This document shows, piece after piece, positions 14,194 through 62,830 of a DNA stretch of 64,000 bases. Both the position numbers and the translations under genes were made by a program. The DNA comes from Candidatus Poribacteria bacterium (GTDB lineage: Bacteria; Poribacteria; WGA-4E; WGA-3G). The stretch covers positions 25,782 through 89,781 of the forward strand of contig JAJECK010000015.1 in the NCBI GenBank assembly GCA_022822085.1, in the 5' to 3' direction. A model generated the notes under the pieces. The model saw nothing but the letters and a program-made list of their open reading frames with translations. It had not been told where the DNA came from and searched no databases. Every line of letters starts with the position of its first letter. Positions within the stretch are counted from its first letter, which is position 1.

Positions 14194-14690
14194 TTCTTTA
14201 GTCCCGTAGGGACGATATGTTTATAGTAGCACGTGCTATCCCTATGCTCTTAGTCCTGTCCGAAAATTAAAAAATAATTTAGGTCCTGTGGCGAGGTTAG
14301 GAAGAAATCAACGGGACCAATGCCATTTAGGCATTCCCCGCCTCGCCAGCAGGAGTACAACTGCCCTCACCCAGAAGGAAAAGATCATAAGTTAATCTTC
14401 ATCCAGTTTGCGCTCTTTGACGCACAAACTGGAAGTTTATGCTACAGACACACAAGGTTCCCCTCCTTCTGCTGGCGTGGTTTCCTAACCTCGCCACAGG
14501 ACCCGATTAAATTCTTAATCTTCATTAGAGACTATGTTTATAGCAAAACGTTGAACACAAGTTCTTTAGTCCCGTAGGGACGATATCTGTGTGCCAATGA
14601 AATAATTTTAATTAACATATCGTCCCTACGGGACTAAAGAGGTTTGAGTGACGTTTTTCTATAAACATATCGTCCCTACGGGACTGAAGA
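14194..14690. repeat. Cluster of four copies of a 30-bp interspersed repeat (CTTTAGTCCCGTmGGGACGATATGTTTATAG), including an inverted pair
   Basis: Copies lie at 14194-14226 and 14561-14590 in direct orientation, and at 14613-14640 and 14658-14690 in reverse complement. The same ~30-mer recurs at 29817, 33441, 44166/44213, 56316, 56606 and 62603/62651. The region also holds a copy of the tggcgaggttagga..cctcgcca palindrome (14290-14350, 14455-14500). Confidence 0.75.
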
Positions 14691-14827
14691 AGGACACTCA
14701 AAATCAAAATTCCTTAAGTTGACACCCGCTGAATGCCAAAAAGGCATTCATAGCGTTGATTTACGGGTTTCGTTCCTCAACCCAACGGACAAATTTGTTT
14801 TGTACAAAAACTTACATACCCCCATTT

Positions 14828-14868
14828 TCAAACACTCTTGACATTATCAGATGATTTTGGTATCATAT
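14828..14868 (+). promoter_or_regulatory. Sigma70-like promoter for the 14905 gene
   Basis: TTGACA-17 nt-TATCAT (cttgacattatcagatgattttggtatcat) lies about 40 nt upstream of an RBS (aggtaagg). Confidence 0.4.
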
Positions 14869-14904
14869 CTATAAACCTATCAACTGAATATAGGTAAGGA
14901 TTTT

Positions 14905-16839
14905 ATGTATTATTCATACCACAGAAGAACCACTGTTTACATCATAGGATTGGTCTTCCTTTTTATAACATTCGCACATTCAGAACAGTACGTTACCGTT
15001 GATCGTTCAAATGGTGATAGACTCACAGGACGTTGGATAAAAGCAACAGATACACATTTTGAAATTGAATATAATGGACAGATGTTAAAGTTTCCATTAG
15101 AAGGTAATACGCTTAGTTTTTTTACAAATCTTGAAAATATACCTGATAAACTGGCAACGAAGTATTTTAGGAATGGACTTGATCTGTTAGATATAGAACT
15201 CCCTGACTCAGCAAAGAGTGCATTTGAATTAGCAATACAAGAATCACCCAAATATGCAGATGCACATTATCAACTCGGTTTAATAAATAACAAAGAAGGA
15301 CACATACAAAAAGCATTAACCCATTTTAAATCTGTACTACTGGTAGATGCACAGAAATATGACCTTGTACCTCTACTTGAGGAAATTGCAGAAAATGCAA
15401 TTGTCGCAAAAGATTATACACAAGCAGTCAATGCCAACCAACTCATCATCAGACACTATCCAGAACACCAATCAATTGCAAAGATAAGTTATCAAACAGG
15501 ATTCCTACTTGTAGAAGAATTAGACGATCCTGCAGCTGCACTTGACCTACTTGTTAATACTGTTAATACATCACAACTTTCAGATTCACCTGAATTTGAA
15601 AAGGCTGTATACCTAATCGGTGTATTACAAGCAGATTCTGGTGATCTTGAAACTGCACTTCATACCTTACAACAATTCGTCCGTATTTATCAGGATAGTG
15701 TCTGGGTGAACAGCGCGCTATTAAAACAAGCAACAATCTATCTTAAACTTGAAAATAGGAAAAACGCTGTAAATATTGCCAACTTACTCCTACGACAGAA
15801 TCCAGATGATGCTTCATTGGTCGAACAAGCTAAAGATATAATTAGTGGAAGTGCCTGGACTATCTATACAAAAGATCTTCCTGATCCGAGTATTCAAGCA
15901 ATCGCAGTTGATGGAACTTCTTTATGGGTTGGGACACCGAAAGGAATAGCACAATTTGAAACAGGTGGAAAGGGTGGATGGAAAGTTGTTGAAGGTGTCG
16001 CTTGGATGATCAACACACATGTCACTGTTCCGGATGTCAGAGCAATTGCAGTTAACCCGTCTGGTGTTTGGGTGGGAACCAGAAACCAAGGTGTCGTCCG
16101 ATATAATAAAATTACAAACAAAGTTGAGAGTTATCCTATTGCCGGTGCTCCGAAGTGGATCAGAGATATAGAAATGGATACTGAAGAGATTTGGTTCGCT
16201 TCAGATAAAGGTATTGTACGGCAGATAATAGAAACAGGTGAACAATTCCCATACTATGGTATTGATTCAGTTCCCGATGATATTCATTCAATGGCACTTA
16301 CACCTGATACAGTATGGGTGGGCACATCTGGTGATGACATTGCTGCGTTCAATCGTGAAGAACAACTATGGAATCCACAATATTATATTGACATCACAGA
16401 GGAATCTCAGATTGTTAGGTTTGATGTAATTGAAGGAAAAATGTTGTTTTCATGGTATAACGAAGTAGATAGAACTAATGGGATTTTTTATGTCAATTGG
16501 GATGGAACAGACAATCGCTCGTCCCCAATATATGAGGGTAAAGAATCAAATGATGAGTTAGTCAATATCTTTGTAACAGGTTATGTTGACAAAAGTCTCT
16601 TAGAAGTAGATGACGTAGAACCACTGGACTATCAAGTTTTATGGATTGCTGACAATAGATATGTATATATATACAACCCGTCTAATGATGAATATCCAGG
16701 TGTCATAGGATATCCTAATATAATTCTGGAAGATTTATCAGTACAATGCATTATAGTTGATAAGAATCGGGCATGGATAGGTACAACTAAAGGTATGCTG
16801 ATGATTGAAAAAGATAGGGTTTTACAACTCAGTGAATAA
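14905..16839 (+). CDS. Secreted TPR + beta-propeller (two-component-regulator-propeller / Reg_prop-like) protein
   Basis: It has a signal/TM. N-terminal TPR repeats are present (AKSAFELAIQESPKYADAHYQLG...). The C-terminal half has repeated IxAIAVD..S.WVGT..GI..F units typical of Reg_prop/Y_Y_Y beta-propellers. Confidence 0.5.
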   Translation: MYYSYHRRTTVYIIGLVFLFITFAHSEQYVTVDRSNGDRLTGRWIKATDTHFEIEYNGQMLKFPLEGNTLSFFTNLENIPDKLATKYFRNGLDLLDIELPDSAKSAFELAIQESPKYADAHYQLGLINNKEGHIQKALTHFKSVLLVDAQKYDLVPLLEEIAENAIVAKDYTQAVNANQLIIRHYPEHQSIAKISYQTGFLLVEELDDPAAALDLLVNTVNTSQLSDSPEFEKAVYLIGVLQADSGDLETALHTLQQFVRIYQDSVWVNSALLKQATIYLKLENRKNAVNIANLLLRQNPDDASLVEQAKDIISGSAWTIYTKDLPDPSIQAIAVDGTSLWVGTPKGIAQFETGGKGGWKVVEGVAWMINTHVTVPDVRAIAVNPSGVWVGTRNQGVVRYNKITNKVESYPIAGAPKWIRDIEMDTEEIWFASDKGIVRQIIETGEQFPYYGIDSVPDDIHSMALTPDTVWVGTSGDDIAAFNREEQLWNPQYYIDITEESQIVRFDVIEGKMLFSWYNEVDRTNGIFYVNWDGTDNRSSPIYEGKESNDELVNIFVTGYVDKSLLEVDDVEPLDYQVLWIADNRYVYIYNPSNDEYPGVIGYPNIILEDLSVQCIIVDKNRAWIGTTKGMLMIEKDRVLQLSE

Positions 16840-16866
16840 CAGTTTAAGCAATTATCCGATTGAATC

Positions 16867-17712: not shown

Positions 17713-17838
17713 ACACAAATCTATTAGTACCACCAAGAAATGCTATCTTTTACAGTCCTAGCGTCTCTATATAAGCAAACACAATAAAAAGAGTCTGCGT
17801 TATGAAATACGGAGATTCTGAATATATAGGAGTAACTT

Positions 17839-18126: not shown

Positions 18127-18190
18127 TAGAATAGTATGTGAGGTTACAGTCGTTTCGGTAACTTCCCTCACAGTCACATAGGAGAAAACA

Positions 18191-21885: not shown

Positions 21886-23883
21886 ATGAAAACAACAATT
21901 CCCATAATCACATTTATTCTTGTATTAGTAGGACACGCTTCTCTTGTTTTTGCACAAGATAACACACAAGTTGGTCTACCTGATGGTGCTATTGCGCGAC
22001 TTGGTAAAGGCGGGATCAACATAATGCGATTCTCACCAGATGGCAGCAAACTGGCAGTGGGTACGGATGTCGGAGTGTGGCTTTACGATGTGTCAGATGG
22101 AAATGCAACTGCCCTGTTCACAGATAAACCTGGTCAGGTCAACGCACTTGCATTTTCAAGTGATGAAAAAATACTTGCAAGTGGTGGACACGGAAACCCA
22201 TTCATACAACTGTGGAGCTTGGAGAACGGTACTAAACATTCTACACTGTTTTTTAAAAGCGAATTTAGATATGTTGTTGCCTTGGGATTTATTGGTAATA
22301 CACTTATAAGTTATGATAATAGTGGGAGAATTATTTATTGGAATATAAGCAATGGTGATATTTTAACAGAATTGGAAAAGGTGAATCCAAACCAAGCAGT
22401 TACATTTTCACCTACTACTAATCTTATTGCTGTAGCAGATAATTTACACAAAATACATATATATGATACTTCCTTAAGTGATAAGCATATTGTGTTTCAT
22501 GATGATGGATTAGATGAATTAAAAAAGGATATTTTTGCCTTAGCAATTACATCAAATAACAAAAAACTTGTAAGTGGCAGTGAGGACAAAGCAATTAGAA
22601 TTTGGGATATTGAAAAAAGGAAACTAACAACTTCTCTTAATGTCCATAAATCCACAATCACTTCTGTTGCCATATCACCTGATGACAAAATCCTTGCAAG
22701 TGGAGATGCCAGCAAAGAAATCATCCTTTGGGATGTTGATAATCCTAAAGAACTTAGGACATTATTAGGACACAAAAACACCGTTACTGCATTAGCATTC
22801 TCACCTGATGGTGCTGGCAAATATAGTGGTTGTCTTGCAAGTGGTAGCCATGATGGTACGATCCGGTTTTGGAACCCTGACACAGGTGAGAAACTTGTTA
22901 CTTTTGCTACGGGACATGCCAAATGGATTAAAACTATCGCCTTTTCTGAGAACGGGTCAACACTTGTGAGTGCTAACATGACTGGGAATGCAGTTGTTTG
23001 GAGTTTGAATAGCTATCAAGAAATTGGTAGTTTTACAAATGGAGAAAGCGACTATGCGGCTACAGTTGGATTCACCTCTGATGCTAAGCATTTTGTCTGT
23101 CAGGGGTTAAACGGATGGCAGTTTACGTTTAAGCCTTACGGTTTTGGGTATACCTCAAAAGACGGTGAAAATTATGAAGCACTTCCCCTAAGAATGTGGG
23201 ACATAACCACTCGTGAAGAAGTACAAGGTCCTTGGAATGAAAATTCATGTGATATACTTACATTTTCTGCTGATAACAAAATACTTGCTATCTATGGATC
23301 AGATAATGTATTGGGATGGAACATTGATTCTGCAGAAGAATTGTTTGATCTATCAACTGAGGATATATGGTTCATTGAACACATGGTAATATCGTCTGAC
23401 AATAAATACCTTGCTGTGTATGAATCCTCTGAGAAACTGTATATATGGAATTTAGAAAAACCAGAGGATCCGCCTGTCCAAACTAAATCGGATATTGACT
23501 CGTTGGCATTCTCTCCAGATGGTAATAGTATAGCAATATTGAGGAGTGGGAATATTTTCCTTCATGATATAGAGTCGTTCCCAGATGGTGAACCTGAAGA
23601 AATTCTTACAGACCTACACGGTCATGTAGCAAGAATGATCTTTTCTCCCGATAGTAAAATCCTGATATGCGCTGGATTTTCTGGTGTTATATCAAAAATT
23701 AGTATAAAGTTGTTGGATATGGAAACAGGTCAAGAAATTGGAAACCTTTCAGGACACTCGGAACTGATAGAGACACTCGCATTTTCTCATGATGGGAAAA
23801 TACTTGCCAGTGGCAGTTTTGATGGGACAATATTGCTATGGGATTGGGAAAAAATATCTAAAAGACAAGAAATGGTCAAATAG
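21886..23883 (+). CDS. Secreted WD40-repeat beta-propeller protein (paralog 1)
   Basis: It has a signal peptide. Multiple WD40 units have LASGS.D..I..W motifs. The N-terminal QVGLPDGAIARLGKGGIN block is shared with paralogs at 24393 and 44359. Confidence 0.75.
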   Translation: MKTTIPIITFILVLVGHASLVFAQDNTQVGLPDGAIARLGKGGINIMRFSPDGSKLAVGTDVGVWLYDVSDGNATALFTDKPGQVNALAFSSDEKILASGGHGNPFIQLWSLENGTKHSTLFFKSEFRYVVALGFIGNTLISYDNSGRIIYWNISNGDILTELEKVNPNQAVTFSPTTNLIAVADNLHKIHIYDTSLSDKHIVFHDDGLDELKKDIFALAITSNNKKLVSGSEDKAIRIWDIEKRKLTTSLNVHKSTITSVAISPDDKILASGDASKEIILWDVDNPKELRTLLGHKNTVTALAFSPDGAGKYSGCLASGSHDGTIRFWNPDTGEKLVTFATGHAKWIKTIAFSENGSTLVSANMTGNAVVWSLNSYQEIGSFTNGESDYAATVGFTSDAKHFVCQGLNGWQFTFKPYGFGYTSKDGENYEALPLRMWDITTREEVQGPWNENSCDILTFSADNKILAIYGSDNVLGWNIDSAEELFDLSTEDIWFIEHMVISSDNKYLAVYESSEKLYIWNLEKPEDPPVQTKSDIDSLAFSPDGNSIAILRSGNIFLHDIESFPDGEPEEILTDLHGHVARMIFSPDSKILICAGFSGVISKISIKLLDMETGQEIGNLSGHSELIETLAFSHDGKILASGSFDGTILLWDWEKISKRQEMVK

Positions 23884-24039: not shown

Positions 24040-24215
24040 AAGTTGTTTTGCGTCTGGGCGATAGTCCGTCTTTGTCCCGTCCGCTTCCAGATTGCGATTT
24101 TTTGTACCGTAATCTTCCAGATTGTGCAGTAGTGTGTGCGCAAACTGGAAGTGGACGGGACAAATGTGTGCAAGTAATTATAGATTCCACTATAATGGAA
24201 GGTGACTGAGTTTCA
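24040..24215. repeat. Composite ~170-bp structured repeat element (copy A) with a long imperfect hairpin and a conserved 3' tail
   Basis: It contains gtcccgtccgcttccag...ctggaagtggacgggac, a ~17-bp stem with one mismatch. It also has cttccagattg x2 and the tail acaaatgtgtgcaagtaattatagattccactataa. Homologous copies are at 35925-36110 and 62640-62830. Confidence 0.65.
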
Positions 24216-24392
24216 TGTGAAGACTCATCTATTTATTGAAGGCCGACGTTAATAAAAATTTAAAGCGACTATTTCCTTACTTAGTAGGTTCCTGTTGGAT
24301 TTCAGCAAACATCTATTCCAAATAGATTGAACTCCTGCATCATACCATATAAAATATTAGTAACACATAACATTTCAAATAAAATATCAACC

Positions 24393-26402
24393 ATGAAAAC
24401 ATCGTATTCTTTTTTCACCTTTATTCCTGTGTTAGTAGCAATAGTATCATCTGTTTTGGCAAGAGACAACACACAAGTTGGTCTACCTGATGGTGCTATT
24501 GCACGTCTTGGTAAAGGCGGAATCAATATAATGCAATTCTCACCTGATGGCAGCAAACTGGCAGTGGGAACAGATGTTAGTGTATGGCTATACGATGTGC
24601 CTGATGGAAATGCAACTGCTTTGTTCTCAGATAGTCCAGCGCAGGTTAACGCTCTTGCTTTTTCGAATGATGGAAAAATACTTGCAAGCGGAGGATATGG
24701 AAATCCTACCATACAACTGTGGAATTTGGAGGATGATACACTCCATTCTGACTTTATTCTTACAAGTAAGTCCAATTATGTAAATGCCCTTGTTTTTCAA
24801 GGGCAAATGCTCATTAGCTATGATAGAGTGGGTAACGTATCACGTTGGAATACCGATACTGGAATTATTTCTTCAGAATTGGTGAAAATACCAGCATTTC
24901 CAGCAATATTCTCACAAACAGGTAAAATTCTAACGGCTACAGACAGTTTAGGAAGAATTCACATATATGATACAATTACAAAAGAGAAATATTCAATACT
25001 TGCAGATGTTGAACTAAAAAAAGAATTGCAGTGTTTGAGTATAGCACCTAACGGTAAAACAATTGCATGCGGAGGCAGGGATAATATAATTAGATTATTG
25101 GAAATCGATAATGACAATAAGGTCCAATCATTAATTGGCCAAACAGCAGGAATAATTTCCATTGCTTTCTCCACTGATGGCAAAATTCTTGCAAGTGGTG
25201 ATTCAAATAAAGAAATTACAATCTGGGATGCTGAGAATACCAAGAAACTTAGAAAAATAAGTGGACACACAGGCACTGTAAATGCATTAGCATTTTCACC
25301 TGATGGGGCAGGTAAATATAGCGGTTGTCTTGCCAGTGGTAGCCTTGATGGAACAATCCGATTTTGGAATCCTAACACAGGTGAGGAACTTGTCAGCTTT
25401 GCTACAGGACATACGAAATGGATTAAAACTATCGCCTTTTCTGAGAACGGGTCAACACTTGTGAGTGCTAACATGACTGGAAATGTAGATGTGTGGAGTT
25501 TAAATGGTTATCAAGAAATAGCTACATTCGCGGATGGTGAATGTGATTATGCAGCTTCAGTTGCATTTACCAATGATGCTAAGTATTTTGTCTGCCAAGG
25601 GCTTAACGGCTATACGGTTACATTTGACTCCTACGGTTTTGGATATAAAACAAGAAGAAGTGATAATCTTGAAATACTACCTGTGCAAATGTGGGACATA
25701 ACCACTGGTGAAGAACATTACGGTCCTTGGAATAAGACATCAGGTAATTTATTGGCATTTTCACACGACAATAAAAATCTTGCCATCTATGGTTCTAAAA
25801 TATTGTTGGTTTGGAACACAGAAACTAAAGATGAATTGTTCAATACTGACACTGAGAAAATGTTTCGCATTGATGAGATGGTTTTCTCATCTGACAATAA
25901 AATGATTGCTTTATATGAAACATCAAGGAATGCTAAAATTTGGGATTTAGATAAACCAGATGAGCCATATATTCAAACCAAACATACAACAGATGCATTA
26001 GGGTTCTCTCCATGTGGAAGGTTTTTCGCTACATTAAAAGTAGGTGGTTTTTCATATCCTAAACCGGGAAAAATATTTATTCATATTTTAGATAGGTTTC
26101 CTGATGGCGAACCAATAGAAATTAGTGCCAATATCCACGGTTTTGAAAATAGATTAATCTTTTCTCCTGATAGCAAAACAATTGTTTGGGCAGGGACGTT
26201 AAATATGAGATCAAATGTTCGCATAAAATTATGGGATGTGGAAACTGGTGAAGAAATAAGAACATTATCTGGGCACACTGAACCTATAGAATCGCTTGCA
26301 TTTTCTCATGATGGGAAAATACTTGCCAGTGGCAGTTTTGATGGGACAATATTGCTATGGGATTGGGAAAAAATATCTAAAAGACAAGAAATGGTAAAAT
26401 AG
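24393..26402 (+). CDS. Secreted WD40-repeat beta-propeller protein (paralog 2, tandem duplicate)
   Basis: Architecture matches 21886..23883. The last ~130 nt, including the stop and ~25 nt of 3' flank, are nearly identical to paralog 1. A 50-nt internal block is identical (25430-25490 vs 22930-22990). The ATG at 24393 with a signal peptide is preferred over the tracker start at 24327. Confidence 0.75.
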   Translation: MKTSYSFFTFIPVLVAIVSSVLARDNTQVGLPDGAIARLGKGGINIMQFSPDGSKLAVGTDVSVWLYDVPDGNATALFSDSPAQVNALAFSNDGKILASGGYGNPTIQLWNLEDDTLHSDFILTSKSNYVNALVFQGQMLISYDRVGNVSRWNTDTGIISSELVKIPAFPAIFSQTGKILTATDSLGRIHIYDTITKEKYSILADVELKKELQCLSIAPNGKTIACGGRDNIIRLLEIDNDNKVQSLIGQTAGIISIAFSTDGKILASGDSNKEITIWDAENTKKLRKISGHTGTVNALAFSPDGAGKYSGCLASGSLDGTIRFWNPNTGEELVSFATGHTKWIKTIAFSENGSTLVSANMTGNVDVWSLNGYQEIATFADGECDYAASVAFTNDAKYFVCQGLNGYTVTFDSYGFGYKTRRSDNLEILPVQMWDITTGEEHYGPWNKTSGNLLAFSHDNKNLAIYGSKILLVWNTETKDELFNTDTEKMFRIDEMVFSSDNKMIALYETSRNAKIWDLDKPDEPYIQTKHTTDALGFSPCGRFFATLKVGGFSYPKPGKIFIHILDRFPDGEPIEISANIHGFENRLIFSPDSKTIVWAGTLNMRSNVRIKLWDVETGEEIRTLSGHTEPIESLAFSHDGKILASGSFDGTILLWDWEKISKRQEMVK

Positions 26403-28439: not shown

Positions 28440-28545
28440 TCCAATAACCACGTAGGTTGGGTTGAGGAACGAAACCCAACATGGAGTGATCTAAAGTGAG
28501 TAAAGATGTTGGGTTCCGTTCCTCAACCCAACGGACACAGACTTA
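28440..28545. repeat. Hairpin-forming REP/MITE-like repeat (same family as 8961-9048) between selenoprotein genes 1 and 2
   Basis: The inverted repeat is acgtaggttgggttgaggaacgaaacccaacat...atgttgggttccgttcctcaacccaacggac. Confidence 0.7.
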
Positions 28546-29706: not shown

Positions 29707-30107
29707 TTGTATATTAATTATTAATATAGTAACGTCTTATGCTAAATAATTATTTGTAAAACATTGTTATACATAAAGAGGAGGATTTGACCGTATATCT
29801 TTGCTTTGGATGATCTTTAGTCCCATCCGGACGATATGTTTATATGTTAAATCCATTTTATGCGAATACAATACAAACAAATAGTTAACTGACACAAGTC
29901 GTTATAGTAAATTTATTTTATCGAGTTACATTTGACATAGTTCAATTTAAGTGATTTATAGCAGTTTTTAGAATTGATTGGACATTAGGGAATTGTCGGA
30001 GGGAACTCCGATTCCCAACTATCATTGAGTTAAGTCTCGATTCGGAGACCGCTCCTACAGAATATGAAAAGTCATGAAAATAAAACACAACATCAATACA
30101 TCTCACA

Positions 30108-33238: not shown

Positions 33239-33580
33239 ATTCTCCTTATGTTTTTTATCTAATTTCTTATCAACATTTTCTCATGCTCATAGATTGAAAC
33301 CAACTGATAAAGTATAACATTAATATGGCGTTGCGTCAAGCATATTTGATTATGAAGCAGGGTTATTTAGTTTTATGAATATTCATTGAATGAGTGTAAC
33401 AAGGTGTTTATATCATATAAAGGAATTTCATTTAAGCACCCTCTTCAGTCCCGTCCGAAAACTCTTTTAAATACGGTGTTTTTGTAAATTGACATCTATG
33501 AGATATTGCGTAAATGCGACCAACATTAAGCCATAACTCTGAGCCATGCACATCAACGAAAGATTCTTACGAACTAAATA

Positions 33581-35924: not shown

Positions 35925-36110
35925 CTATACGATTGTTATTATCTTATAGTAGAATCCAAAAATATATACACACTTTTGGTACGTTAAACCTAAACCGCTG
36001 GACTGTGCCGTAGCACAAACTTTCCAGTTTGTGCAGTAGTGTCTGCGCAAACTGGAAAGTTTGCGGTACAAATGTGTGCAAGTAATTATAGATTCCACTA
36101 TAATATCTAC
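35925..36110. repeat. Composite ~170-bp structured repeat element (copy B)
   Basis: It shares atagtagaatccaaaaatatatacacacttttgg..cgttaaacctaaaccg, then the long hairpin caaactttccagtttg..(16-nt loop)..caaactggaaagtttg, then the tail acaaatgtgtgcaagtaattatagattccactataat. It aligns with 62640-62830 and 24040-24215. Confidence 0.7.
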
Positions 36111-44039: not shown

Positions 44040-44049
44040 TGGAGTGTCC

Positions 44050-44240
44050 AGACTAAACTTGTAGGTCGGGTAGAGGCACGAAACCCGACACGTGATGATT
44101 ATGTCTATCATGTCGGGTTTCGTGCCTCTACCCGACGGACTTATTTAGTCAGGCTATCCACTATTTCTTTAGTCCTGTCCGGACGATATGTTAATATTAT
44201 TTCATCGGCACACAGATATCGTCCGGACGGGACTAAAGAC
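44050..44240. repeat. REP/MITE-like hairpin repeat (44050-44140) followed by an inverted pair of the 30-bp interspersed repeat (44166-44196 and 44213-44240)
   Basis: The hairpin is gtaggtcgggtagaggcacgaaacccgacacg...catgtcgggtttcgtgcctctacccgacggac. The inverted pair is ctttagtcctgtccggacgatatgtt / cagatatcgtccggacgggactaaag. Confidence 0.7.
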
Positions 44241-44358: not shown

Positions 44359-46431
44359 TTAAGGGTTTAACTTCTGTTTGATAGATTCCCAATCCCACAG
44401 GATGACAGTACCATCTCTACTTGCAGTGGCTAAAGTCTTTCTATCTGGAAAGAACGCTAAATCGTTGACCAAATCGGTATGTCCTTTGAGGATATTCGAG
44501 ACGTTGAATGTACGTGTTTCCCGCACTTGTATTGTCCCGTTAGATCCACCACTAACAATGCTTGTATCATCAGGAGAAAACCGTAGACATCTACAGACTT
44601 CATTAGTACGACCTGAAGATATTCGCTCACCTGATGACACATCCCAGATATAAATTTCATCATAACTCATACTTGCCAATGTTTTTCCACTTGGTGAGAA
44701 TACTAACCTACGTATTGCATTTTTCTGTCCAGTTAGTGTAAGCCGTTTAGTCCCCTTTTCTATGTCCCAAAGGTGAATTATCTTGTCTTTGCCACCACTC
44801 GCTAATAGGTCTCCATTCGGTGATAGTGCCAATGTACTAAGAGAACCTGTAGAGCCATTAAGAGTGTAGACCGGTGCTATCGTCTTGACATTAGTCAACA
44901 GTCTTTTCAATATAGGTTTTGTCTGGATCGGAATGTTCCATATATGAAACTTACCGATTTGTTCATTCTGAGTTGCAGTTGCTAATCTATTCCCTACATT
45001 AGAGAATACAAAAGTTGGTATCTTATATGGGGGAACTTCAATCCCAGTTATAGTCAATCTCTTCCTTTTTTCGGAGGTGTCCCACAGTTCATAAGTATTT
45101 TCAGGACTCCAATCCTTTATTACAACATACTTTGCATCTGATGAAATTGCAAGAGGGGTTTCCCAGTTGAAGAAAGTTCCTGTCAAGTGATGGCCGACAT
45201 TGGTGTCCCAATTCTGTATTTGATAATTCATAAAATGCCCAGTTATTAGAGCATTATTCTCCTCCGAAATGGCTAAATTAACGACTTCTGATGCATGTCC
45301 CGAACAAGCAAGTTGCTGTCGACCAGTGTTAGCATCCCAAACCCGAATTGTACCATCTTTGCTGCCTGTAAGAAGTCTATTTCCATCAGGTGAATATGTT
45401 ATGTCTGAGATTGTGTATTTATGTCGAGTGAGTCTTTGCTTGGGAAAGAAACGTCTTATTTTTCCAAGCCAACCTTGTTGTTTTGCTGTGGCATCCCATA
45501 GATATATACTCCCATCGTGCCCACCACTAACAAGGGTTTTGCCATTCGGTGAAAATGCAAGCGCGGAAAAACTTATAGGTGCTTTGAACGATACCTGTGA
45601 TTCCTGTGTATCCATATTCCATAACTTGATAGTCCGAAAGTTATCACCACTTGCAAGTGTCTTACTATCTGGCGAAAAAGCTAAGGATTGAATAGACCGT
45701 TCATGTCCCGATAGTGTGAACAGAAGCTTAGAATTAGCCGTGTCCCATAAATGGATTGGAGTTTTTCTCTTTGAGCGGTGTTTTGACACTGCTAAGGCAA
45801 GAAAGCGTCCATCAGGTGAAAGTCCAATTACTGGACTATGTGTATCCTCAAAATCGAAATTTATACTCTTTATTTCGATCGGTTTTGGTGCTGACCGTTC
45901 ATTAAAACGCAAATGGACTATTTTATTCTGCGCCCTGCTTACACCTACCATCTCAGGACGATCTGCAGATAAGAGAACTGATGAATACTTGCTTTTTTCA
46001 ATAACAATAATGGTTTGGAGTTCACCAGTATCTGCATCCCATTGTACTATCTTTCCTCCTGAAACTGCTCCAATCAGTGTACTGCCATCCACTGAAAACA
46101 TTACTCCCTTAACATTCTGTCTATCTCCTTTTAATAGTGAAATCTCTGTTCCAGTCTTTGCATCATACATCCAGATGCCAATCGTGGTTGCCACTGCAAA
46201 CCAATTACCGTCGGGTGAAAATTTGATGTCATTTATACTGCCTTTACCTAAACGTGCTTTTGCACCTTCAGGTAACTGCCATCGGGAGTAGTTTACATTT
46301 GATGTAGGGAATGTCAATTCTATTGTATCACGATTCATCAACCTTCTGACGAATAATATCGAAGCAAGAACTGCAAGTATAGATATAAGAATCACTATGA
46401 GTATAGCAAAAGAGCGACGAGATAATTTCAT
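44359..46431 (-). CDS. Secreted WD40-repeat beta-propeller protein (paralog 3)
   Basis: It has an N-terminal TM/signal. WQLPEGAKARLGKGSINDIKFSPDGNWFAVATTIGIWMYDAKTG parallels the N-termini of paralogs 1 and 2. Many WD40 units are present (LASGS.D.TI.LWD). Confidence 0.7.
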   Translation of the reverse strand: MKLSRRSFAILIVILISILAVLASILFVRRLMNRDTIELTFPTSNVNYSRWQLPEGAKARLGKGSINDIKFSPDGNWFAVATTIGIWMYDAKTGTEISLLKGDRQNVKGVMFSVDGSTLIGAVSGGKIVQWDADTGELQTIIVIEKSKYSSVLLSADRPEMVGVSRAQNKIVHLRFNERSAPKPIEIKSINFDFEDTHSPVIGLSPDGRFLALAVSKHRSKRKTPIHLWDTANSKLLFTLSGHERSIQSLAFSPDSKTLASGDNFRTIKLWNMDTQESQVSFKAPISFSALAFSPNGKTLVSGGHDGSIYLWDATAKQQGWLGKIRRFFPKQRLTRHKYTISDITYSPDGNRLLTGSKDGTIRVWDANTGRQQLACSGHASEVVNLAISEENNALITGHFMNYQIQNWDTNVGHHLTGTFFNWETPLAISSDAKYVVIKDWSPENTYELWDTSEKRKRLTITGIEVPPYKIPTFVFSNVGNRLATATQNEQIGKFHIWNIPIQTKPILKRLLTNVKTIAPVYTLNGSTGSLSTLALSPNGDLLASGGKDKIIHLWDIEKGTKRLTLTGQKNAIRRLVFSPSGKTLASMSYDEIYIWDVSSGERISSGRTNEVCRCLRFSPDDTSIVSGGSNGTIQVRETRTFNVSNILKGHTDLVNDLAFFPDRKTLATASRDGTVILWDWESIKQKLNP

Positions 46432-51612: not shown

Positions 51613-51699
51613 AATAGAGAATCAACAAGTGAGTAGGCATTATAAATTAGCAAGATGTTGCTATTTTCGTGAATTATAGTAAAAACTACAATTACCTGG

Positions 51700-51940
51700 A
51701 CAGTGGCGAGGTTAGGAAACCTCGCCAGCGTGAATGTGCAAGGACCTGGACAGTGGCGAGGTTAGGAAACCTCGCCAGCGTGAGTGTGCTGGCGAGGTTA
51801 GGAAGAAATCAACGGTATGAATCATGGAGCATGCCATACGCGCATGCTTCTTTAGGCATTCCCCGCCTCGCCAGCGAGCGTGTGCAATTACCTGGACAGT
51901 GGCGAGGTTAGGAAACCTCGCCAGCGTTATGGTGTGGGGA
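51700..51940. repeat. Cluster of palindromic hairpin repeats (TGGCGAGGTTAGGAAACCTCGCCA core). The 41-bp unit occurs three times with an embedded related element.
   Basis: The unit acctggacagtggcgaggttaggaaacctcgccagcgtgartgtgca is at 51703, 51744 and 51888. An inserted segment (ctggcgaggttaggaagaaatcaacgg...gcattccccgcctcgccagc) is also at 14290-14350. Each unit has a 10-bp perfect stem and a 4-nt loop. Confidence 0.7.
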
Positions 51941-52559: not shown

Positions 52560-53015
52560 TATCTTGTCCGTTGAGTTCGTGAACCCCAACACATATCGAT
52601 AAATGTTGGGTTTCGTTCCTCAACCTAACCTACGATACTAATATAACGAAAGGGGCGTAGGTCGGGTAGAGCGTGAGCGAAACCTATAAGCGTCAATTTA
52701 GTGAGTAAAGTGCATCTGGAACACCTGTCGCCCCTCTGGGCTTTGGCCACACACAGGCATCATCTGCTATACACCTGTCGCCTCTCTGGGGCTATCTTCA
52801 ATCATATATCAGCACCAGCGGTGCGAAAGGTATATAGAATTCACAGGCCAAAAGAAACCAAGCACCAGCGGTGCGAAAGGGTGTCCGATAAAATTGGATT
52901 TCCAACTATAAAACAAGAGACAGGCTCTTAAATTGATGCCTATGGGTAGAGCGTGAGCGAAACCTGACATTCACGGCACGTGTCGGGTTTCGCTCACGCT
53001 CTACCCGACCTACGA
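52560..53015. repeat. MITE-like composite bounded by REP/MITE hairpin-repeat arms, with internal direct repeats
   Basis: There is a complete hairpin at 52560-52640 and arms cgtaggtcgggtagagcgtgagcgaaacct (52650) ... aggtttcgctcacgctctacccgacctacg (53015). The interior holds direct repeats cacctgtcgccyctctggg x2 and agcaccagcggtgcgaaagg x2. The tracker ORF 52701..52931 is probably non-coding. Confidence 0.55.
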
Positions 53016-56017: not shown

Positions 56018-56695
56018 CATTTCCTTATAGTTCAGGACGGACGCATTCCGCATGATATAGTAAAACTTATACCATTTCTATTTAAGAAACTGTCATAAAG
56101 GCTTCCTTAAAGTCCCACTGATAAGGGGAATTTAGGAGGTTCTTCCAATTAGCGATGAGACTTTATTATTTAGAAATGGTATTACAATTAATGGTGCACT
56201 ACTGTAGCGCACACTGTTAGGTTGCGTCGTTTAATACAATACACAAACTAAATGAAGATTAAGAAATTAAATCGGTCCTTTTCATTATACATATTCGGTA
56301 CATTTCAAGTGCTCTTCAGTCGCGTCCAGACGATATGTTTATAGAATACCGCTTGACAACACAAACATAAACTCATAGCAGTTTGTGTACGCGTTGCTTC
56401 GCATAAAGGGCATATTTTTTATTTAATTCTTTCTTAATCGTCGCTGTTCCCCTTAAAACTAGTCAGAATAGTATATCAAAAATGAAACAATGTTGCAAAA
56501 AGAATTATCCAATTAATCACGAGTTGTGCAAAATAACTAATCGCAATATATATACTTACATAAACAGAATGCCTTGTCCATATTTCACTTTTGTTGGCAC
56601 CTTCTTTAGTCCCGTCCGGACGATATGTTTATAGCAGAATAATGCTAATAGTCATAAACAAATTAATACAAAACCCTTACACACCCATTTTTTAA

Positions 56696-56970: not shown

Positions 56971-57428
56971 GTTCGGAAACACCTTCCCGTTTGAAGGGAA
57001 TTGAAACTTGACTACTCCGTCGTCTCCCGGTCCACCAACTGCTACTGTTCGGAAACACCTTCCCGTTTGAAGGGAATTGAAACAGGTCGAAAGTAATGAT
57101 CAGTTCGTCGTCATCGGTTAGGACGTTCGGAAACACCTTCCCGTTTGAAGGGAATTGAAACATAATGCCTTTTGAAGATTTTGTTGATGAAGATTTTGAG
57201 TTCGGAAACACTTTCCGTTTGAAGGGAATTGAAACAAAAAAAGGGTGGAAGATTGGAAGGATTCTGAAAGTCCTTACTGTTTGAAGGGAACCGAAGCAAA
57301 AAGGGTGGAAGGGTGGAAGATTAGAAGGAGTTCGGAAACCCCTTACTGTTTGAAGGGAATTGCAACTCTTCCAATCTTCCATCCTTCTTTCGTTCTGAAA
57401 GTCCATACTGTTTGAAGGGAACCGAAAC
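56971..57428 (+). CRISPR. CRISPR array: 37-bp repeat GTTCGGAAACACCTTCCCGTTTGAAGGGAATTGAAAC, four well-conserved plus three degenerate repeats
   Basis: Repeats are at 56971-57007, 57047-57083, 57125-57161 and 57199-57234 (the last has a 1-nt deletion), with unique spacers of 39, 41 and 37 bp. Degenerate repeats follow at ~57262-57297, 57330-57366 and ~57391-57428. The repeat ends in ATTGAAAC, the typical Cas6-type 8-nt 5' handle. It contains the internal palindrome cccgtttgaaggg. No cas genes lie within the window. Confidence 0.8.
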
Positions 57429-59222: not shown

Positions 59223-59512
59223 TTTATGCCTACCTTTTTAGGTGTTGAGATATTATATCTATATATGTATTAGACAGAAATTTGACCTTTTACGTTCAAG
59301 TTTTTTTGCTGGTGTTGAATACAGGCATGGTTGGGAAACCGCCTACAATGCTTTCATGTAATTATTGCTTGATTGTGAGCAGTGCTTTCATGTGGACATC
59401 TCATCTCAAATACAATCAAATCAAAACTATATATAGAAACATGAATAGACGATTATCTTCAGCCCAGCGATGAAACAGGTATCCAGCATAAGTTTGGGGT
59501 TTTCGACGTCAA

Positions 59513-60668: not shown

Positions 60669-60877
60669 TTTATGTGCCAGATATAGTCAGTGAATTTGTG
60701 CGTGGTGCTGCACGACTATGGGCAGATGTTGGTGTTGTTTACACGTATTAGTGCAGGACATTGTAGCGGTTTCTAACTGCGATCAAGATATTTGTTTAAA
60801 CTTTTCTAATTAAATAGCGTTATATAATCAAGGTTATACAACGCTATCGCTGTTTTAAAAGAGGGCACATCTGAACA

Positions 60878-61547: not shown

Positions 61548-61626
61548 GTTAACCCGAGTTTGCTAATAAAAAACAGTAACCACTGTCCGTTAGGAACCCA
61601 CCTACAATATAAAATATGGAGAATTT

Positions 61627-62553
61627 ATGGAAAACGCTCTTGAGAAACAACGAACATCAATTTCTGAACTGCGTCCGCAGATCGAAAACCTTATCCAGTC
61701 GAGTATTTCTGCTAATACGAAAAAGGCATATCAACGCGCTTTACAAGGGATCGAAAATTGGCTGCCCGCAGGTGAGCCGTTGTCGGATCACTTGCTGGCT
61801 GCGTATTTGACAGAACTGCACGAGAAAGGAAAATCCCCATCAACCATCTCGCAGGTTGTGGCTGCAGTGAAATGGCAGATGAAACATCAACCCGGAGCCG
61901 ACTTTCCGTTGCCGACTACCTACGCGACTTTGGCGGGTATCCGGCGTGATGGTAAGGCACGAGGACGTGGACAGGTGGACGGTATGATTTGGCAAGATGT
62001 AGAACGGGTCTGTATTCTGGCAGAAACCGATGGCACACTCGCGGGGTTACGAGATTCCGCTATGATACGGTTGATGAGCGATTGCCTGCTGCGTATCAGT
62101 GAAGTGGTTGCAGTGAACGCTGGCGATTTGAAGGAGCGGACGCTGTCGGTACAGGCTTCAAAATCTGACCAGGAGGGGCGCGGGGAAAGTCTTTATGTGT
62201 GTGATAGAACTCGCGATATCTTGACGAAATATAAAGAGATGGGCAGTATTCAGGAAGGCCCGATGTTCCGACAGATTCGCCGTGGTGGACATATTCAGGA
62301 GAACAGACTGCACGATCATTCTGCTCGGAGAATCGTCCAGAAACGTGCATCGGATGCGGGTGTAGTCGGGTTTATCTCTGGGCATTCGTTGCGTGTTGGT
62401 TCTGCAATGTCGCTGGCTTCCGCTGGTGCGACTGTAGTTGATATGCAGGTTGCGGGACGGTGGAAGTCGTCTCAGATGCCGGCGCATTATGCGAAGGCGG
62501 AATTGGCAGAACGCGGTGCTATTGCGCGGTTTAAGGATGGAAAAATGCAATGA
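61627..62553 (+). CDS. Tyrosine-type site-specific recombinase (phage-integrase family)
   Basis: It has a SAM-like N-terminal domain. The C-terminal catalytic region has ...GLRDSAMIRLMSDCLLRISEVVAV... and HSLRVGSAMSLASAGATVVDMQVAGRWKSSQMPAHYAK, with the conserved HxxR and a C-terminal Tyr. The RBS is tggagaatttatg. Confidence 0.75.
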   Translation: MENALEKQRTSISELRPQIENLIQSSISANTKKAYQRALQGIENWLPAGEPLSDHLLAAYLTELHEKGKSPSTISQVVAAVKWQMKHQPGADFPLPTTYATLAGIRRDGKARGRGQVDGMIWQDVERVCILAETDGTLAGLRDSAMIRLMSDCLLRISEVVAVNAGDLKERTLSVQASKSDQEGRGESLYVCDRTRDILTKYKEMGSIQEGPMFRQIRRGGHIQENRLHDHSARRIVQKRASDAGVVGFISGHSLRVGSAMSLASAGATVVDMQVAGRWKSSQMPAHYAKAELAERGAIARFKDGKMQ

Positions 62554-62594
62554 ATGTGTCAACCGTGCAATGTTAATAGAAATGTGATGAACCA

Positions 62595-62830
62595 ACCATC
62601 CTTAGGCCCGTCCGGACGATATGTTTATAGATCGCGCATGTACACGGTCCCTTTAGTCCCGTCCGGACGATATGTTATAGTATAATCCAAAAATATATAC
62701 ACACTTTTGATTCGTTAAACCTAAACCGTAGGACTGTGCTGTACCATAAACTTCCAGTTTGTGCAGTAGTGTGTGTGCAAACTGGAAAGTTCACGTTACA
62801 TAGGTGTGCAATTAATTATAGATTCCACTA
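62595..62830. repeat. Two copies of the 30-bp interspersed repeat followed by the composite ~170-bp structured element (copy C)
   Basis: The repeat copies ccttaggcccgtccggacgatatgtttatag and cctttagtcccgtccggacgatatgttatag are at 62603 and 62651. The element follows at 62682-62830 and aligns with 35940-36110. Confidence 0.7.

What the first reader, a model, noticed from the sequence alone, without database searches (positions are those of the whole stretch)
14194..62682. Genome-scale 30-bp interspersed repeat CTTTAGTCCCGTCCGGACGATATGTTTATAG, frequently in inverted pairs (MITE-like)
I count at least 12 copies in intergenic DNA at 14194, 14561, 14613(rc), 14658(rc), 29817, 33441 (partial), 44166, 44213(rc), 56316, 56606, 62603 and 62651. 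Variants have GTAGGGAC for GTCCGGAC. Inverted pairs about 20-25 nt apart (14561/14613 and 44166/44213) would form ~30-bp hairpins. Two copies sit in the CRISPR leader region. Such density suggests an active or recently active miniature element, or a protein/RNA binding site.
Basis: seen in the sequence. Interest (0 to 1): 0.5.

Follow-up and report, generated by a model that had tools for sequence, protein, structure and literature searches.

The report
REP-like hairpin repeats of Poribacteria
The 31-base repeat is real and is a family of small hairpin-forming intergenic repeats (REP/REPIN type) found throughout Candidatus Poribacteria; in related genomes the same repeats bracket a small IS200-like tyrosine (Y1/HUH) transposase gene of a subclass that the published survey recorded as having no such repeats.

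Summary
All 12 listed positions are real to within 3 nt: 11 full copies and one truncated. I found one more copy, split by a 262-bp MITE. None is expected by chance.

The window is a Candidatus Poribacteria metagenome scaffold. The motif occurs in many Poribacteria species, and 280 of 281 copies lie outside long ORFs.

Each unit is a 5-bp hairpin (GTCCC-GTA-GGGAC) followed by a conserved 3' tail, GATATGTTTATAG. All five stem pairs show compensatory changes.

Copies form direct pairs 50-53 nt apart and convergent pairs that fold into 23-bp hairpins. Composites of the form >><< are common. Divergent pairs are essentially absent, and there are no target-site duplications.

In every locus fetched by the protein rather than by the motif (5 distinct Poribacteria places, 2 Flavobacterium), the same repeats bracket a 153-170-aa Y1 transposase as -> -> [gene] <- <-. 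This enzyme matches subclass 1.2 of Quentin et al. 2018, which they listed as "REP: no".

In this genome a derived variant (AG to CC) accounts for 7 of 11 copies, against 1 of 268 elsewhere. That argues for recent spread within the lineage.

Verdict: a REP/REPIN-type system, a new variant of a known kind. The transposase was not found in the window, and mobility is inferred.

The parts
14196..14226 (+). REP unit, AG type (CTTTAGTCCCGTAGGGACGATATGTTTATAG). It is the first unit of a five-unit cluster (-> -> -> <- <-) spanning 14196-14689.
   Evidence: hairpin GTCCC/GGGAC at -3.9 kcal/mol
14246..14261 (+). 5' half of a REP unit (CTCTTAGTCCTGTCCG) that is split by an inserted 262-bp MITE
   Evidence: (I7)
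14262..14523 (.). Inserted MITE with terminal inverted repeats. Its right end (..TTAATCTTCAT) matches the ends of an IS630-family (DDE_3) element that sits in REP loops in L178. It is not part of the REP family; it uses the REP as a target.
   Evidence: (I7)
14524..14543 (+). 3' half of the split REP unit (TAGAGACTATGTTTATAG)
14564..14639 (.). REPIN-like doublet. Two 23-nt arms (14564-14586 on +, 14617-14639 on -) surround a 30-nt loop and fold as a 23-bp hairpin.
   Evidence: -26.3 kcal/mol, z -8.8; homologous to 44167-44238 including the loop (I2: 49 nt at 92%)
14659..14689 (-). REP unit, AG type. It forms a direct pair with the 14609-14639 unit at 50-nt spacing.
14690..14725 (.). Outer flank of the cluster (..TCCTTAAGTTGACACC). 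It matches the outer inverted repeat that bounds >><< composites in other genomes.
29815..29845 (+). REP unit, CC type, lying inside a ~175-nt element (about 29731-29903) with its own terminal inverted repeats
   Evidence: (D14)
33443..33458 (+). Truncated REP unit (CTTCAGTCCCGTCCG). The junction resembles the left junction of the MITE at 14262.
44167..44238 (.). REPIN-like doublet, CC type. Arms are 44167-44189 (+) and 44216-44238 (-), with a 26-nt loop. It lies between convergent genes.
   Evidence: -23.7 kcal/mol, z -9.1
56314..56344 (+). REP unit, a diverged CC type, 626 nt upstream of the CRISPR array
56604..56634 (+). It is 336 nt upstream of the first CRISPR repeat and preceded by the left half of the ~175-nt TIR element (from about 56518).
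   Evidence: D14
62600..62630 (+). REP unit, CC type; first of a direct pair. It starts 47 nt after the stop codon of a tyrosine recombinase gene.
62651..62680 (+). REP unit, CC type, with a 1-nt deletion in the tail; second of the direct pair at 51-nt spacing

Best explanation
The repeat is a REP-type element: a repetitive extragenic palindrome that also occurs as REPIN-like doublets and BIME-like clusters.

**The unit.** It is about 31 nt within a period of about 51 nt. It has a short 5' flank (CTTYA), a 5-bp hairpin with a 3-nt loop (GTCCC-GTA-GGGAC), and a conserved single-stranded 3' tail (GATATGTTTATAG).

**The cognate protein.** It is a 153-170-aa Y1/HUH tyrosine transposase of the IS200 clade. 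Its signature motifs match subclass 1.2 of Quentin et al. 2018. In Poribacteria and Flavobacterium genomes this gene is bracketed as -> -> [Y1] <- <-, with the tails pointing at the gene.

**Shown.**
- The repeats are strictly extragenic.
- The stem covaries while the tail is conserved.
- The >><< and >< composites elsewhere in the genome have the architecture of the Y1 locus with the gene replaced by a ~22-30-nt loop.
- There are no target-site duplications.
- A derived AG-to-CC subfamily dominates in this lineage only.

**Inferred.** By analogy with IS608/ISDra2 TnpA and with TnpA-REP, the enzyme recognises the hairpin on single-stranded DNA. It cuts and rejoins next to the hairpin, and so copies or moves REP units and doublets in trans.

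Secondary host effects, for example on transcripts or on DNA structure, are possible but untested.
For: **Reality and extent**
- 11 full copies in the window against 0 expected.
- The tail 10-mer ATGTTTATAG occurs 348 times in 1.07 Mb of Poribacteria loci against about 2 expected.

**Extragenic position**
- 280 of 281 copies lie outside ORFs of 200 aa or more, which cover 69% of the sequence (p = 2e-141).

**Hairpin under selection**
- The test set was anchored only on the tail. All 5 stem pairs show compensatory changes.
- 57 double-change cells were observed against 19.8 +/- 3.5 in shuffles (0 of 500 reach it).
- 80% of cells are paired, against 41-55% when the partner column is slid.
- 18 fully paired stem/loop types occur, including GCCCC/GGGGC, GTTCC/GGAAC, GCTCC/GGAGC, GCCCT/AGGGC and GCACC/GGTGC.

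**Architecture**
- Direct spacing is 50-53 nt.
- Convergent pairs are 41 nt start to start.
- Only 1 divergent pair was seen.
- Cluster types: >><< 16, ><< 19, >< 6.

**No target-site duplication**
- Flank matches are no longer than at random positions.

**Link to a Y1 transposase, found starting from the motif**
- In 7 of 37 non-Poribacteria loci, the motif lies within 0-1.2 kb of a Y1_Tnp gene (PF01797, E = 6.5e-30), and weaker variants of it cluster beside the gene.
- L131 has three direct copies about 60 nt upstream of a Y1 gene.

**The same link, found starting from the protein**
- Five distinct Poribacteria places (L178, L179 with its near-identical copy L180, L181, L182, L185) and Flavobacterium L183 and L184 all show direct units upstream and inverted units downstream of the gene. 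At L178 the upstream unit is only a partial one, 16 nt before the ATG.
- In the best case, L179, the proximal unit ends 21 nt before the ATG and the first inverted unit starts 4 nt after the stop.

**The protein**
- It scores 88 bits on the NCBIfam IS200 model (cutoff 55) and matches the ISDra2 and IS608 TnpA structures at E of about 1e-9 to 1e-10.
- Its motifs DHIH, WQ and Y---Q--HH fit subclass 1.2.

**Protein and repeat track each other**
- The Y1 proteins flanked upstream by GTCCC units are 87% identical to each other. They are 65-68% identical to those flanked by other stems.

**Lineage-specific spread**
- The CC variant makes up 7 of 11 copies in the window and 1 of 268 elsewhere.
Against: - No Y1 gene lies in the window or in the 8.5 kb beyond it that I could read. 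The cognate gene is shown only in other Poribacteria genomes, not in this one.
- No transposition event, insertion polymorphism or enzymatic activity was observed. None of the fetched loci was orthologous to a REP site in the window.
- The classical REP hallmark is absent. That hallmark is GTAG or GTGG 0-2 nt 5' of the hairpin foot. Here GTAG occurs only inside the loop and 3' arm, and it is missing in the AGA- and AGC-loop variants.
- The enzyme fails the NCBIfam model for REP-associated tyrosine transposases (32.9 bits against a cutoff of 80).
- The 31 nt are strongly conserved across many species. That could also reflect a host function.
- The strand bias expected for single-strand transposition was not detectable. 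Net orientation against GC skew or gene strand in 56 loci gave p = 0.28.
Confidence: 0.8

Rival explanations
1. The motif is a host regulatory or architectural site. It would be an operator for a transcription factor, a binding site for a nucleoid protein, or a CRISPR-leader signal, conserved because the host needs it. The Y1 gene would merely share that site.
For: - The 31 nt are conserved at 64-100% per position across many species.
- Some copies lie upstream of genes and near a promoter-like sequence in the CRISPR leader.
- REPs in enterobacteria are known to bind host proteins (background cited in PMC2817692 and PMC3479197).
Against: - There is no fixed position relative to gene starts. 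Copies occur between convergent genes (44167-44238), just after stop codons (62600), and in tandem arrays of 7-13 units and ~30 units.
- Stem sequence changes freely as long as pairing is kept. That is the signature of recognition by structure, not of a double-stranded operator.
- A CRISPR array with this repeat was seen only in the window and its overlapping copy L122.
- This reading is not exclusive of mobility.
Confidence: 0.1
2. It is a classical MITE: a deletion derivative of a DDE-transposase insertion sequence, mobilised through its terminal inverted repeats.
For: - The inverted pairs look like terminal inverted repeats.
- >><< composites carry a further outer inverted repeat (ATAGGTGTCAATTTAAGGA ... 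TCCTTAAATTGACACCTAT).
- Some solo units sit inside a ~175-nt element with its own inverted ends.
- IS630-family elements are present in these genomes.
Against: - No target-site duplications were found.
- Many copies are solo, in direct pairs, or in tandem arrays, which TIR-based cut-and-paste does not produce.
- The stem covaries.
- The gene actually bracketed by the units is a Y1 transposase, not a DDE enzyme.
- The IS630-family element uses the motif as a target and interrupts it.
Confidence: 0.04
3. It is primarily an RNA element, such as an mRNA-stabilising 3' hairpin, a terminator or attenuator, or a small RNA. Its spread would then be secondary.
For: - Several copies lie just downstream of genes (62600; 44167-44238).
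- Units upstream of the Y1 gene end 16-21 nt before its ATG (the L178 one is only a partial unit), so they would be in its 5' UTR if the promoter lies upstream of them.
Against: - There is no Rfam match in the window.
- No T-run follows the hairpin.
- A 5-bp stem is weak: -3.9 kcal/mol when folded as single-stranded DNA, z = -2.6.
- Copies occur in both orientations relative to neighbouring genes.
- This reading does not explain the bracketing of a transposase gene.
Confidence: 0.04
4. The arrays are a degenerate or miniature CRISPR-like system, with a 31-nt repeat and ~20-nt spacers.
For: Regular 50-53-nt periodicity, with arrays of up to 13 units in L088 and ~30 in L178.
Against: - The 'spacers' within an array are nearly identical to one another, so these are tandem duplications of a ~51-nt unit.
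- The spacers are too short.
- Most copies are solo or in inverted clusters.
Confidence: 0.01

Closest known systems
REP / REPIN / BIME elements with their RAYT (TnpA-REP) genes, forming 'REPtrons' (Nunvar 2010, PMC2817692; Bertels & Rainey 2011, PMC3116915; Corneloup 2021, PMC8266576)
   Same: - Short, extragenic, hairpin-forming repeats at high copy number.
- Inverted doublets that form long hairpins, and mosaic clusters.
- A small Y1/HUH gene flanked by the same repeats in inverted orientation.
- No target-site duplications.
- Several repeat variants per genome, each apparently paired with its own Y1 paralogue.
   Different: - The stem is only 5 bp, the bottom of the 5-13-bp range that Di Nocera et al. 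(PMC3733652) list for GTAG REPs and below the 7-bp minimum of Quentin et al.'s REP search.
- There is no GTAG/GTGG tag 5' of the hairpin foot.
- Instead, a 13-nt conserved 3' tail ends in TATAG in Poribacteria or GGTAG in Flavobacterium.
- There is a strict ~51-nt period.
- The enzyme belongs to the IS200 clade (Y---Q--HH), not to class 2 (Y---NP), and scores below the cutoff of the REP_Tyr_transpos model.
TnpA-Y1 subclass 1.2 (Quentin, Siguier, Chandler & Fichant 2018, PMC6006769)
   Same: - The signature motifs DH[IV]H, WQ and Y---Q--HH.
- A length of about 150 aa.
- A conserved C-terminal extension (SF+EEY..L..F.V.YD.+Y.F).
- Presence in Bacteroidetes.
   Different: - That survey lists this subclass as 'REP: no', as lacking IS200-type end structures, and as largely restricted to Cyanobacteria and Bacteroidetes.
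- Here all seven distinct protein-selected places examined carry flanking hairpin repeats, and the subclass is widespread in Candidatus Poribacteria.
- Their REP search required stems of 7-20 nt with GTAG/GTGG next to the stem, so it would not detect these units.
IS200/IS605 insertion sequences (IS608, ISDra2) and their miniature palindrome-associated derivatives
   Same: - The transposase matches the IS200 family model and the TnpA crystal structures.
- It is recognised through small subterminal hairpins.
- No target-site duplication.
   Different: - IS200/IS605 ends carry hairpins in the same orientation on one strand, and the whole IS is present in multiple copies.
- Here the flanks are inverted.
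- Each Y1 protein was seen on one or a few contigs.
- What is multicopy is the repeat, not the gene.
REP-targeting insertion sequences (for example ISPpu9 in Pseudomonas putida, PMC12288879; IS1397 and ISKpn1 from my own knowledge)
   Same: Other mobile elements insert specifically into the REP hairpin. Here these are an IS630-family IS, its MITE, and a 34-nt mini-hairpin.
   Different: A different IS family is involved, and insertion is at the TA within the 3-nt loop. This concerns elements that exploit the REP, not the REP itself.

Membership tests
REP/REPIN-RAYT system (REPtron) | Short palindromic repeat, many copies, extragenic | tested here: met
   281 copies in the Poribacteria loci plus the window; 280 lie outside ORFs of 200 aa or more, which cover 69% of the sequence
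REP/REPIN-RAYT system (REPtron) | Hairpin maintained by selection (compensatory changes) | tested here: met
   All 5 pairs show changes on both sides; 57 double-change cells against 19.8 +/- 3.5 in shuffles, 0 of 500 as high; slid controls are lower
REP/REPIN-RAYT system (REPtron) | Inverted doublets (REPINs) and mosaic clusters (BIMEs) | tested here: met
   >< 6, ><< 19, >><< 16 clusters; doublets fold at -24 to -26 kcal/mol with z about -9
REP/REPIN-RAYT system (REPtron) | A Y1/HUH transposase gene flanked by the same repeats in inverted orientation | tested here: met
   Seen in L131, L178-L182 and L185 (Poribacteria) and in L183 and L184 (Flavobacterium). The upstream unit at L178 is partial. 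Not present in the window itself.
REP/REPIN-RAYT system (REPtron) | Conserved GTAG/GTGG tetranucleotide 0-2 nt 5' of the hairpin foot | tested here: not met
   The 5' flank is TTTA, TTCA or CTAA. GTAG occurs only within the loop and 3' arm, and is absent in the AGA- and AGC-loop variants.
REP/REPIN-RAYT system (REPtron) | The transposase belongs to TnpA-REP (class 2, Y---NP; NCBIfam NF047646) | tested here: not met
   NF047646 scores 30-33 bits against a cutoff of 80; the Y motif is YIKNQETHH
REP/REPIN-RAYT system (REPtron) | The transposase is single-copy per genome while the repeats are numerous | tested here: inconclusive
   Each Y1 protein looked up was read on 1-3 contigs. However, two different Y1 genes lie within 4 kb in both L181 and L182. 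Whole genomes could not be scanned.
REP/REPIN-RAYT system (REPtron) | The enzyme cleaves and rejoins single-stranded REP DNA | not testable with these tools
   Needs the in vitro cleavage and strand-transfer assay described in PMC8266576
TnpA-Y1 subclass 1.2 (Quentin et al. 2018) | Motifs DH[IV]H, WQ, Y---Q--HH; about 148 aa; a specific C-terminal domain | tested here: met
   By inspection of P0121, P0133, P0212, P0240 and the Flavobacterium proteins. The authors' own HMMs were not available.
IS200/IS605 insertion sequence | The transposase matches the IS200 family model and fold | tested here: met
   NF033573 scores 77-88 bits against a cutoff of 55; PF01797 matches; PDB 2XM3, 2A6M and 2VJV match at E of about 1e-9 to 1e-10
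IS200/IS605 insertion sequence | Left-end and right-end hairpins in the same orientation on one strand, and the whole element multicopy | tested here: not met
   The flanking units are inverted relative to each other (-> gene <-). No second identical gene copy was seen.
DDE-type MITE | Terminal inverted repeats plus target-site duplication | tested here: not met
   The best flank match is 0-3 nt even when boundaries are allowed to shift by +/-3 nt. That is no better than at random positions.
CRISPR array | Unique spacers between identical repeats | tested here: not met
   Inter-unit segments within an array are near-identical (L088, L031, L085)

The most novel reading that the evidence does not exclude
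Subclass-1.2 Y1 transposases, so far an orphan IS200-related group recorded as having no associated repeats, would be the engines of their own REP-like populations. Their substrates are mini-hairpins with 5-bp stems, a ~51-nt period and a conserved 3' tail. The gene together with its repeats is found in Poribacteria and in Bacteroidota (Flavobacterium and related MAGs); the motif alone also turned up in single loci of MAGs labelled Ignavibacteriaceae, Kapaibacterium, Desulfobacterales, Lachnospiraceae and others, where I saw no Y1 gene. This would be a second, independent REPtron-type lineage, arising inside the IS200 clade rather than in the RAYT clade. Its hairpins would in turn serve as landing pads for an IS630-family IS and its MITE, and for a 34-nt mini-hairpin.
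Probability: 0.5. Interest if true: 0.6.

Novelty: new variant of a known kind. Interest (0 to 1): 0.5.

Why it matters
- It assigns a plausible substrate, and hence a function, to a Y1/HUH subclass that the only dedicated survey left without either.
- It shows that repeat searches tuned to stems of 7 bp or more with a GTAG tag miss a widespread family.
- It offers a second, IS200-derived example of the long-term partnership between a transposase and its repeats. This can be compared with the RAYT/REPIN systems used as models of within-genome replicators.
- It explains a substantial part of the unusually repeat-rich intergenic DNA of Poribacteria, an uncultivated group known mainly from marine sponges. 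These repeats probably affect assembly and binning of such genomes.
- The enzyme is small and its substrate is now precisely defined, so the idea can be tested directly in vitro.

Tried and rejected
**Searches and tests that gave nothing**
- Rfam at gathering thresholds and a tRNA scan of the window found nothing.
- A full-text literature search for the hairpin sequence gave only unrelated hits. No paper combines Poribacteria with REPINs.
- Looking for orthologous sites to test presence or absence failed. No fetched locus is syntenic with a REP site of the window; the only shared segments are repeats plus two genes at 67-73% identity.
- A strand-bias test was inconclusive. The 7 copies that are solo or in direct pairs in the window plus the 8.5 kb beyond it are all on the + strand, which has the positive cumulative GC skew. 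But net orientation in 56 8-kb loci does not correlate with GC skew or gene strand (p = 0.28). Orientation along large contigs is only loosely consistent.

**Transposase leads that did not pan out**
- The first search for a cognate transposase in 84 Poribacteria loci found only L083. That is a class-2 RAYT flanked by an unrelated REP (GTAGTAGGGCAATTCATTGCCCG), so I rejected it as the partner.
- A protein search with a Flavobacterium Y1 returned only Flavobacterium-like relatives and was of no use for Poribacteria.

**Interpretations considered and dropped**
- Tyrosine recombinase site. The gene at 61627-62553 is a Phage_integrase that ends 47 nt before a REP pair, but a homologue lies near the motif in only one other locus.
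- CRISPR-like arrays were rejected because the spacers are near-identical.
- The non-Poribacteria hits are not chance. Nearly all (33 of the 37 loci) carry the same AGTCCCGTAGGGACGATAT, although the two central bases were free in the search pattern.

Full report
**1. The observation**

The 31-mer CTTTAGTCCCGTCCGGACGATATGTTTATAG matches 7 times at up to 3 mismatches, against 0.00 expected in shuffles. Its 23-nt core finds 11 copies:
- plus strand: 14196, 14564, 29815, 44167, 56314, 56604, 62600, 62651
- minus strand: 14617-14639, 14667-14689, 44216-44238

The partial copy at 33443 is real. It is split by a 262-bp inverted-repeat element: 14246-14261, then the insert at 14262-14523, then 14524-14543.

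The two inverted pairs have 23-nt arms and loops of 30 and 26 nt. They are homologous to each other including the loop (I2). They fold as single-stranded DNA at -26.3 and -23.7 kcal/mol, with z about -9.

Region 14196-14689 is one cluster of five units (-> -> -> <- <-), with the MITE sitting in the second unit.

**2. Where the window comes from, and how far the family extends**

A window protein maps to ENA metagenome scaffold KELL22-1_SAMN22237337 scaffold_236, which is 107,410 bp.

I scanned one genome per species with AGTCCCGTNNGGACGATAT. Most are from Candidatus Poribacteria MAGs of many species, including complete chromosomes.

A profile of the 31-mer finds 281 copies in these loci plus the window. 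The cross-species consensus is CTTTAGTCCCGTAGGGACGATATGTTTATAG. Conservation also extends to positions outside the search pattern.

Of the 281 copies, 280 lie outside ORFs of 200 aa or more, which cover 69% of the DNA.

**3. Anatomy**

The unit is a 5-bp hairpin with a 3-nt loop, followed by a conserved tail.

I collected units by the tail alone (ATGTTTATAG: 348 occurrences against about 2 expected; 110 distinct 31-mers). In that set all five stem pairs show compensatory changes:
- 57 double-change cells against 19.8 +/- 3.5 in shuffles (0 of 500 as high)
- 80% of cells paired, against 41-55% when the partner column is slid

Stem variants include GCCCC/GGGGC, GTTCC/GGAAC, GCTCC/GGAGC, GCCCT/AGGGC, GCACC/GGTGC and ATCCC/GGGAT.

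The arrangement of units is highly ordered:
- Direct neighbours are 50-53 nt apart.
- Convergent neighbours are 41 nt apart.
- Divergent neighbours are essentially absent (1 case).
- Cluster types are solo 44, << 26, ><< 19, >><< 16 and >< 6. Many of the 'solos' have a diverged partner.

Long arrays are tandem duplications of a ~51-nt unit with near-identical inter-unit segments, so they are not CRISPR-like (13 units in L088). L178 has ~30 units downstream of the Y1 gene.

Flanks of >< and >><< clusters show no target-site duplication beyond chance.

**4. The link to a transposase**

The non-Poribacteria hits of the scan come from Bacteroidota and from MAGs labelled Ignavibacteriaceae, Desulfobacterales and others. 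Nearly all (33 of the 37 loci) carry the same AGTCCCGTAGGGACGATAT, although the two central bases were left free in the pattern. They are therefore not chance matches.

In 7 of these 37 loci the exact motif lies 0-1.2 kb from a ~153-aa gene, and weaker variants of it cluster beside that gene. The gene matches Pfam Y1_Tnp (E = 6.5e-30) and the NCBIfam IS200 model.

A metagenome scan with the Poribacteria-specific 27-mer returned L131. There, three direct units lie about 60 nt upstream of a Y1 gene.

Using that fragment as a query returned 157-aa proteins that NCBI names 'IS200/IS605 family transposase [Candidatus Poribacteria bacterium]'. They sit on contigs whose lengths match complete Poribacteria chromosomes already seen in the scan.

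I then fetched loci by protein, independently of the motif. All show the same picture:
- **L179 (and its near-identical copy L180).** Two exact units lie upstream, the proximal one ending 21 nt before the ATG. Inverted units start 4 nt after the stop.
- **L178.** A partial unit lies 16 nt before the ATG, and about 30 inverted units lie downstream.
- **L181 and L185.** The same layout, with the GCCCT/AGGGC variant.
- **L182.** The same layout, with GCCCC-AGA-GGGGC.
- **Flavobacterium L183 and L184.** The same layout, with ATCCC/GGGAT and GTCCC/GGGAC hairpins at 51-nt spacing.

The >><< composites scattered through the genomes are thus the Y1 locus with the gene replaced by a short loop.

The Y1 proteins with GTCCC units upstream are 87% identical to each other. 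They are 65-68% identical to those flanked by other stems.

**5. What the enzyme is**

- It passes the IS200 family model (77-88 bits against a cutoff of 55).
- It fails the REP-associated tyrosine transposase model (30-33 bits against a cutoff of 80).
- Its closest solved structures are ISDra2 and IS608 TnpA.
- Its motifs (DHIH, WQ, Y---Q--HH), its length and its C-terminal extension fit subclass 1.2 of Quentin et al. 2018.

Quentin et al. describe that subclass as low-copy, lacking IS200-type end structures and largely limited to Cyanobacteria and Bacteroidetes. Their table lists it as 'REP: no'. Their REP search required stems of 7-20 nt with GTAG/GTGG next to the stem. It would not detect 5-bp stems.

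**6. Evidence of recent spread in this lineage**

In the window, 7 of 11 copies carry a derived double change (GTAGGGAC to GTCCGGAC). They lie in five separate intergenic regions. Only 1 of 268 copies in other Poribacteria loci carries it. One more CC copy lies 2.7 kb beyond the window.

A shared two-base derived state in dispersed copies is most simply explained by copying from a variant master. Concerted evolution with a co-evolving protein cannot be excluded.

**7. Mechanism**

Shown:
- extragenic hairpin repeats with covarying stems
- ordered clusters
- no duplications at the flanks
- a Y1/HUH gene bracketed by the units
- protein clades that track stem variants
- a lineage-specific subfamily

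Inferred from the IS608/ISDra2 and TnpA-REP paradigms (PMC6006769, PMC8266576): the enzyme binds the hairpin on single-stranded DNA. It cleaves and rejoins beside it, guided by the bases flanking the stem, and so moves or copies units in trans.

The conserved 13-nt tail ends in TATAG in Poribacteria and GGTAG in Flavobacterium. It is a candidate cleavage or guide region, but this was not tested.

**8. Comparison and novelty**

Functionally and architecturally this is a REP/REPIN/REPtron system. It fails two defining features of the classical family: the GTAG tag 5' of the stem, and a class-2 TnpA-REP enzyme. Nor is it an IS200/IS605 insertion sequence, because the flanks are inverted and what is multicopy is the repeat rather than the gene.

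I therefore rate it a new variant of a known kind. The association of subclass 1.2 with repeats contradicts the published table for that subclass. I found no paper describing it, though the library searched is incomplete.

**9. Limits**

- No Y1 gene lies in the window, and the genome of the window could not be scanned.
- No insertion polymorphism could be examined.
- The strand-bias test was inconclusive.
- Genome-wide copy number is unknown, because the scan was truncated. Window density is 13 copies in 64 kb, which would extrapolate to the order of hundreds to a thousand per genome. That is an extrapolation, not a count.

Noticed in passing
window 14262-14523 and 33458 onward; L178 about 1682-2905 and 6026-7294: An IS630-family IS (Pfam DDE_3) and its 262-bp MITE derivative are inserted precisely in the loop of the REP hairpin: GTCCCTA|ATGAAGTTAAAAT...AACTTCAT|ACGGGAC. 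The duplicated target is probably the loop TA. The same junction recurs in L021, L048, L063, L069, L085 and L103, so the REP loop appears to be a preferred landing site.
   Followed up: partly
L028, L039, L077, L108, L178, L179; related sequences in window about 14300-14345 and 14716-14760: A 34-nt mini-hairpin (CAAATCAACGCCAAATGCGCGTTTGGCATTTGKC) is found inserted between GTCCCTAC and GGGAC of REP units in several genomes. It is a second small element that targets the same hairpin.
   Followed up: partly
window 29731-29903 (complete); left halves at about 14112-14226 and 56518-56634; also L021, L025, L083, L112: A ~175-nt element with its own terminal inverted repeats (CACGASTTGTGCWAAATAAC ... 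GTTAACTGRCACAAGTCGT) carries one REP unit in its middle. Three 'solo' REPs of the window belong to it.
   Followed up: partly
window 56971-57428: A CRISPR array of 7 repeats (GTTCGGAAACACCTTCCCGTTTGAAGGGAATTGAAAC). The last four repeats are degenerate and have similar spacers. No cas-type Pfam hit appears among the called genes within about 5 kb on either side, so the array may be an orphan or decaying one.
   Followed up: partly
window 8961-9047, 28451-28537, 44048-44153, 52603-52634, 52656-53014, 14765-14791: A second abundant hairpin family (GTTGGGTTGAGGnACGAAACCCAAC and the variant GTCGGGTAGAG..GAAACCCGAC), often as inverted pairs. It is unrelated in sequence to the REP studied here.
   Followed up: no
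window 24103-24196, 36010-36104, 62740-62834: A ~95-nt repeat lies upstream of three plus-strand genes. It consists of a hairpin (CTTCCAGTTTGTGCA..TGCAAACTGGAAAG) followed by TGTGCAAGTAATTATAGATTCCACTATAAT, which looks promoter-like.
   Followed up: no
window 51670-51934; 14284-14310 and 14474-14500: A further repeat, GGCGAGGTTAGGAAACCTCGCC. It occurs as a tandem array at 51.7 kb and also forms the inner part of the MITE's inverted repeats at 14.3-14.5 kb.
   Followed up: no
L083 6996-7766 (minus strand): A classical class-2 RAYT (NHYH, YIHYNP) in a Poribacteria MAG, flanked on both sides by pairs of a different REP (GTAGTAGGGCAATTCATTGCCCG). Poribacteria therefore carry at least two unrelated REP/Y1 systems.
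   Followed up: partly
window 61627-62553: A tyrosine recombinase gene (Phage_integrase) ends 47 nt before the REP pair at 62600/62651. A homologue lies about 1 kb from a REP in L021. The association is not enriched elsewhere.
   Followed up: partly
window 14196-62651 plus L122 (window coordinate 66738): All 7 REP copies that are solo or in direct pairs, i.e. outside the inverted clusters, are on the + strand, which has the positive cumulative GC skew. The bias was not reproduced as a correlation with skew or gene strand across 56 other loci (p = 0.28).
   Followed up: partly
window 21886-23883 and 24327-26402: Two adjacent paralogous WD40-repeat genes, 78-87% identical over long stretches. 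A third WD40 gene on the minus strand at 44359-46431 shares repeat units with them.
   Followed up: no
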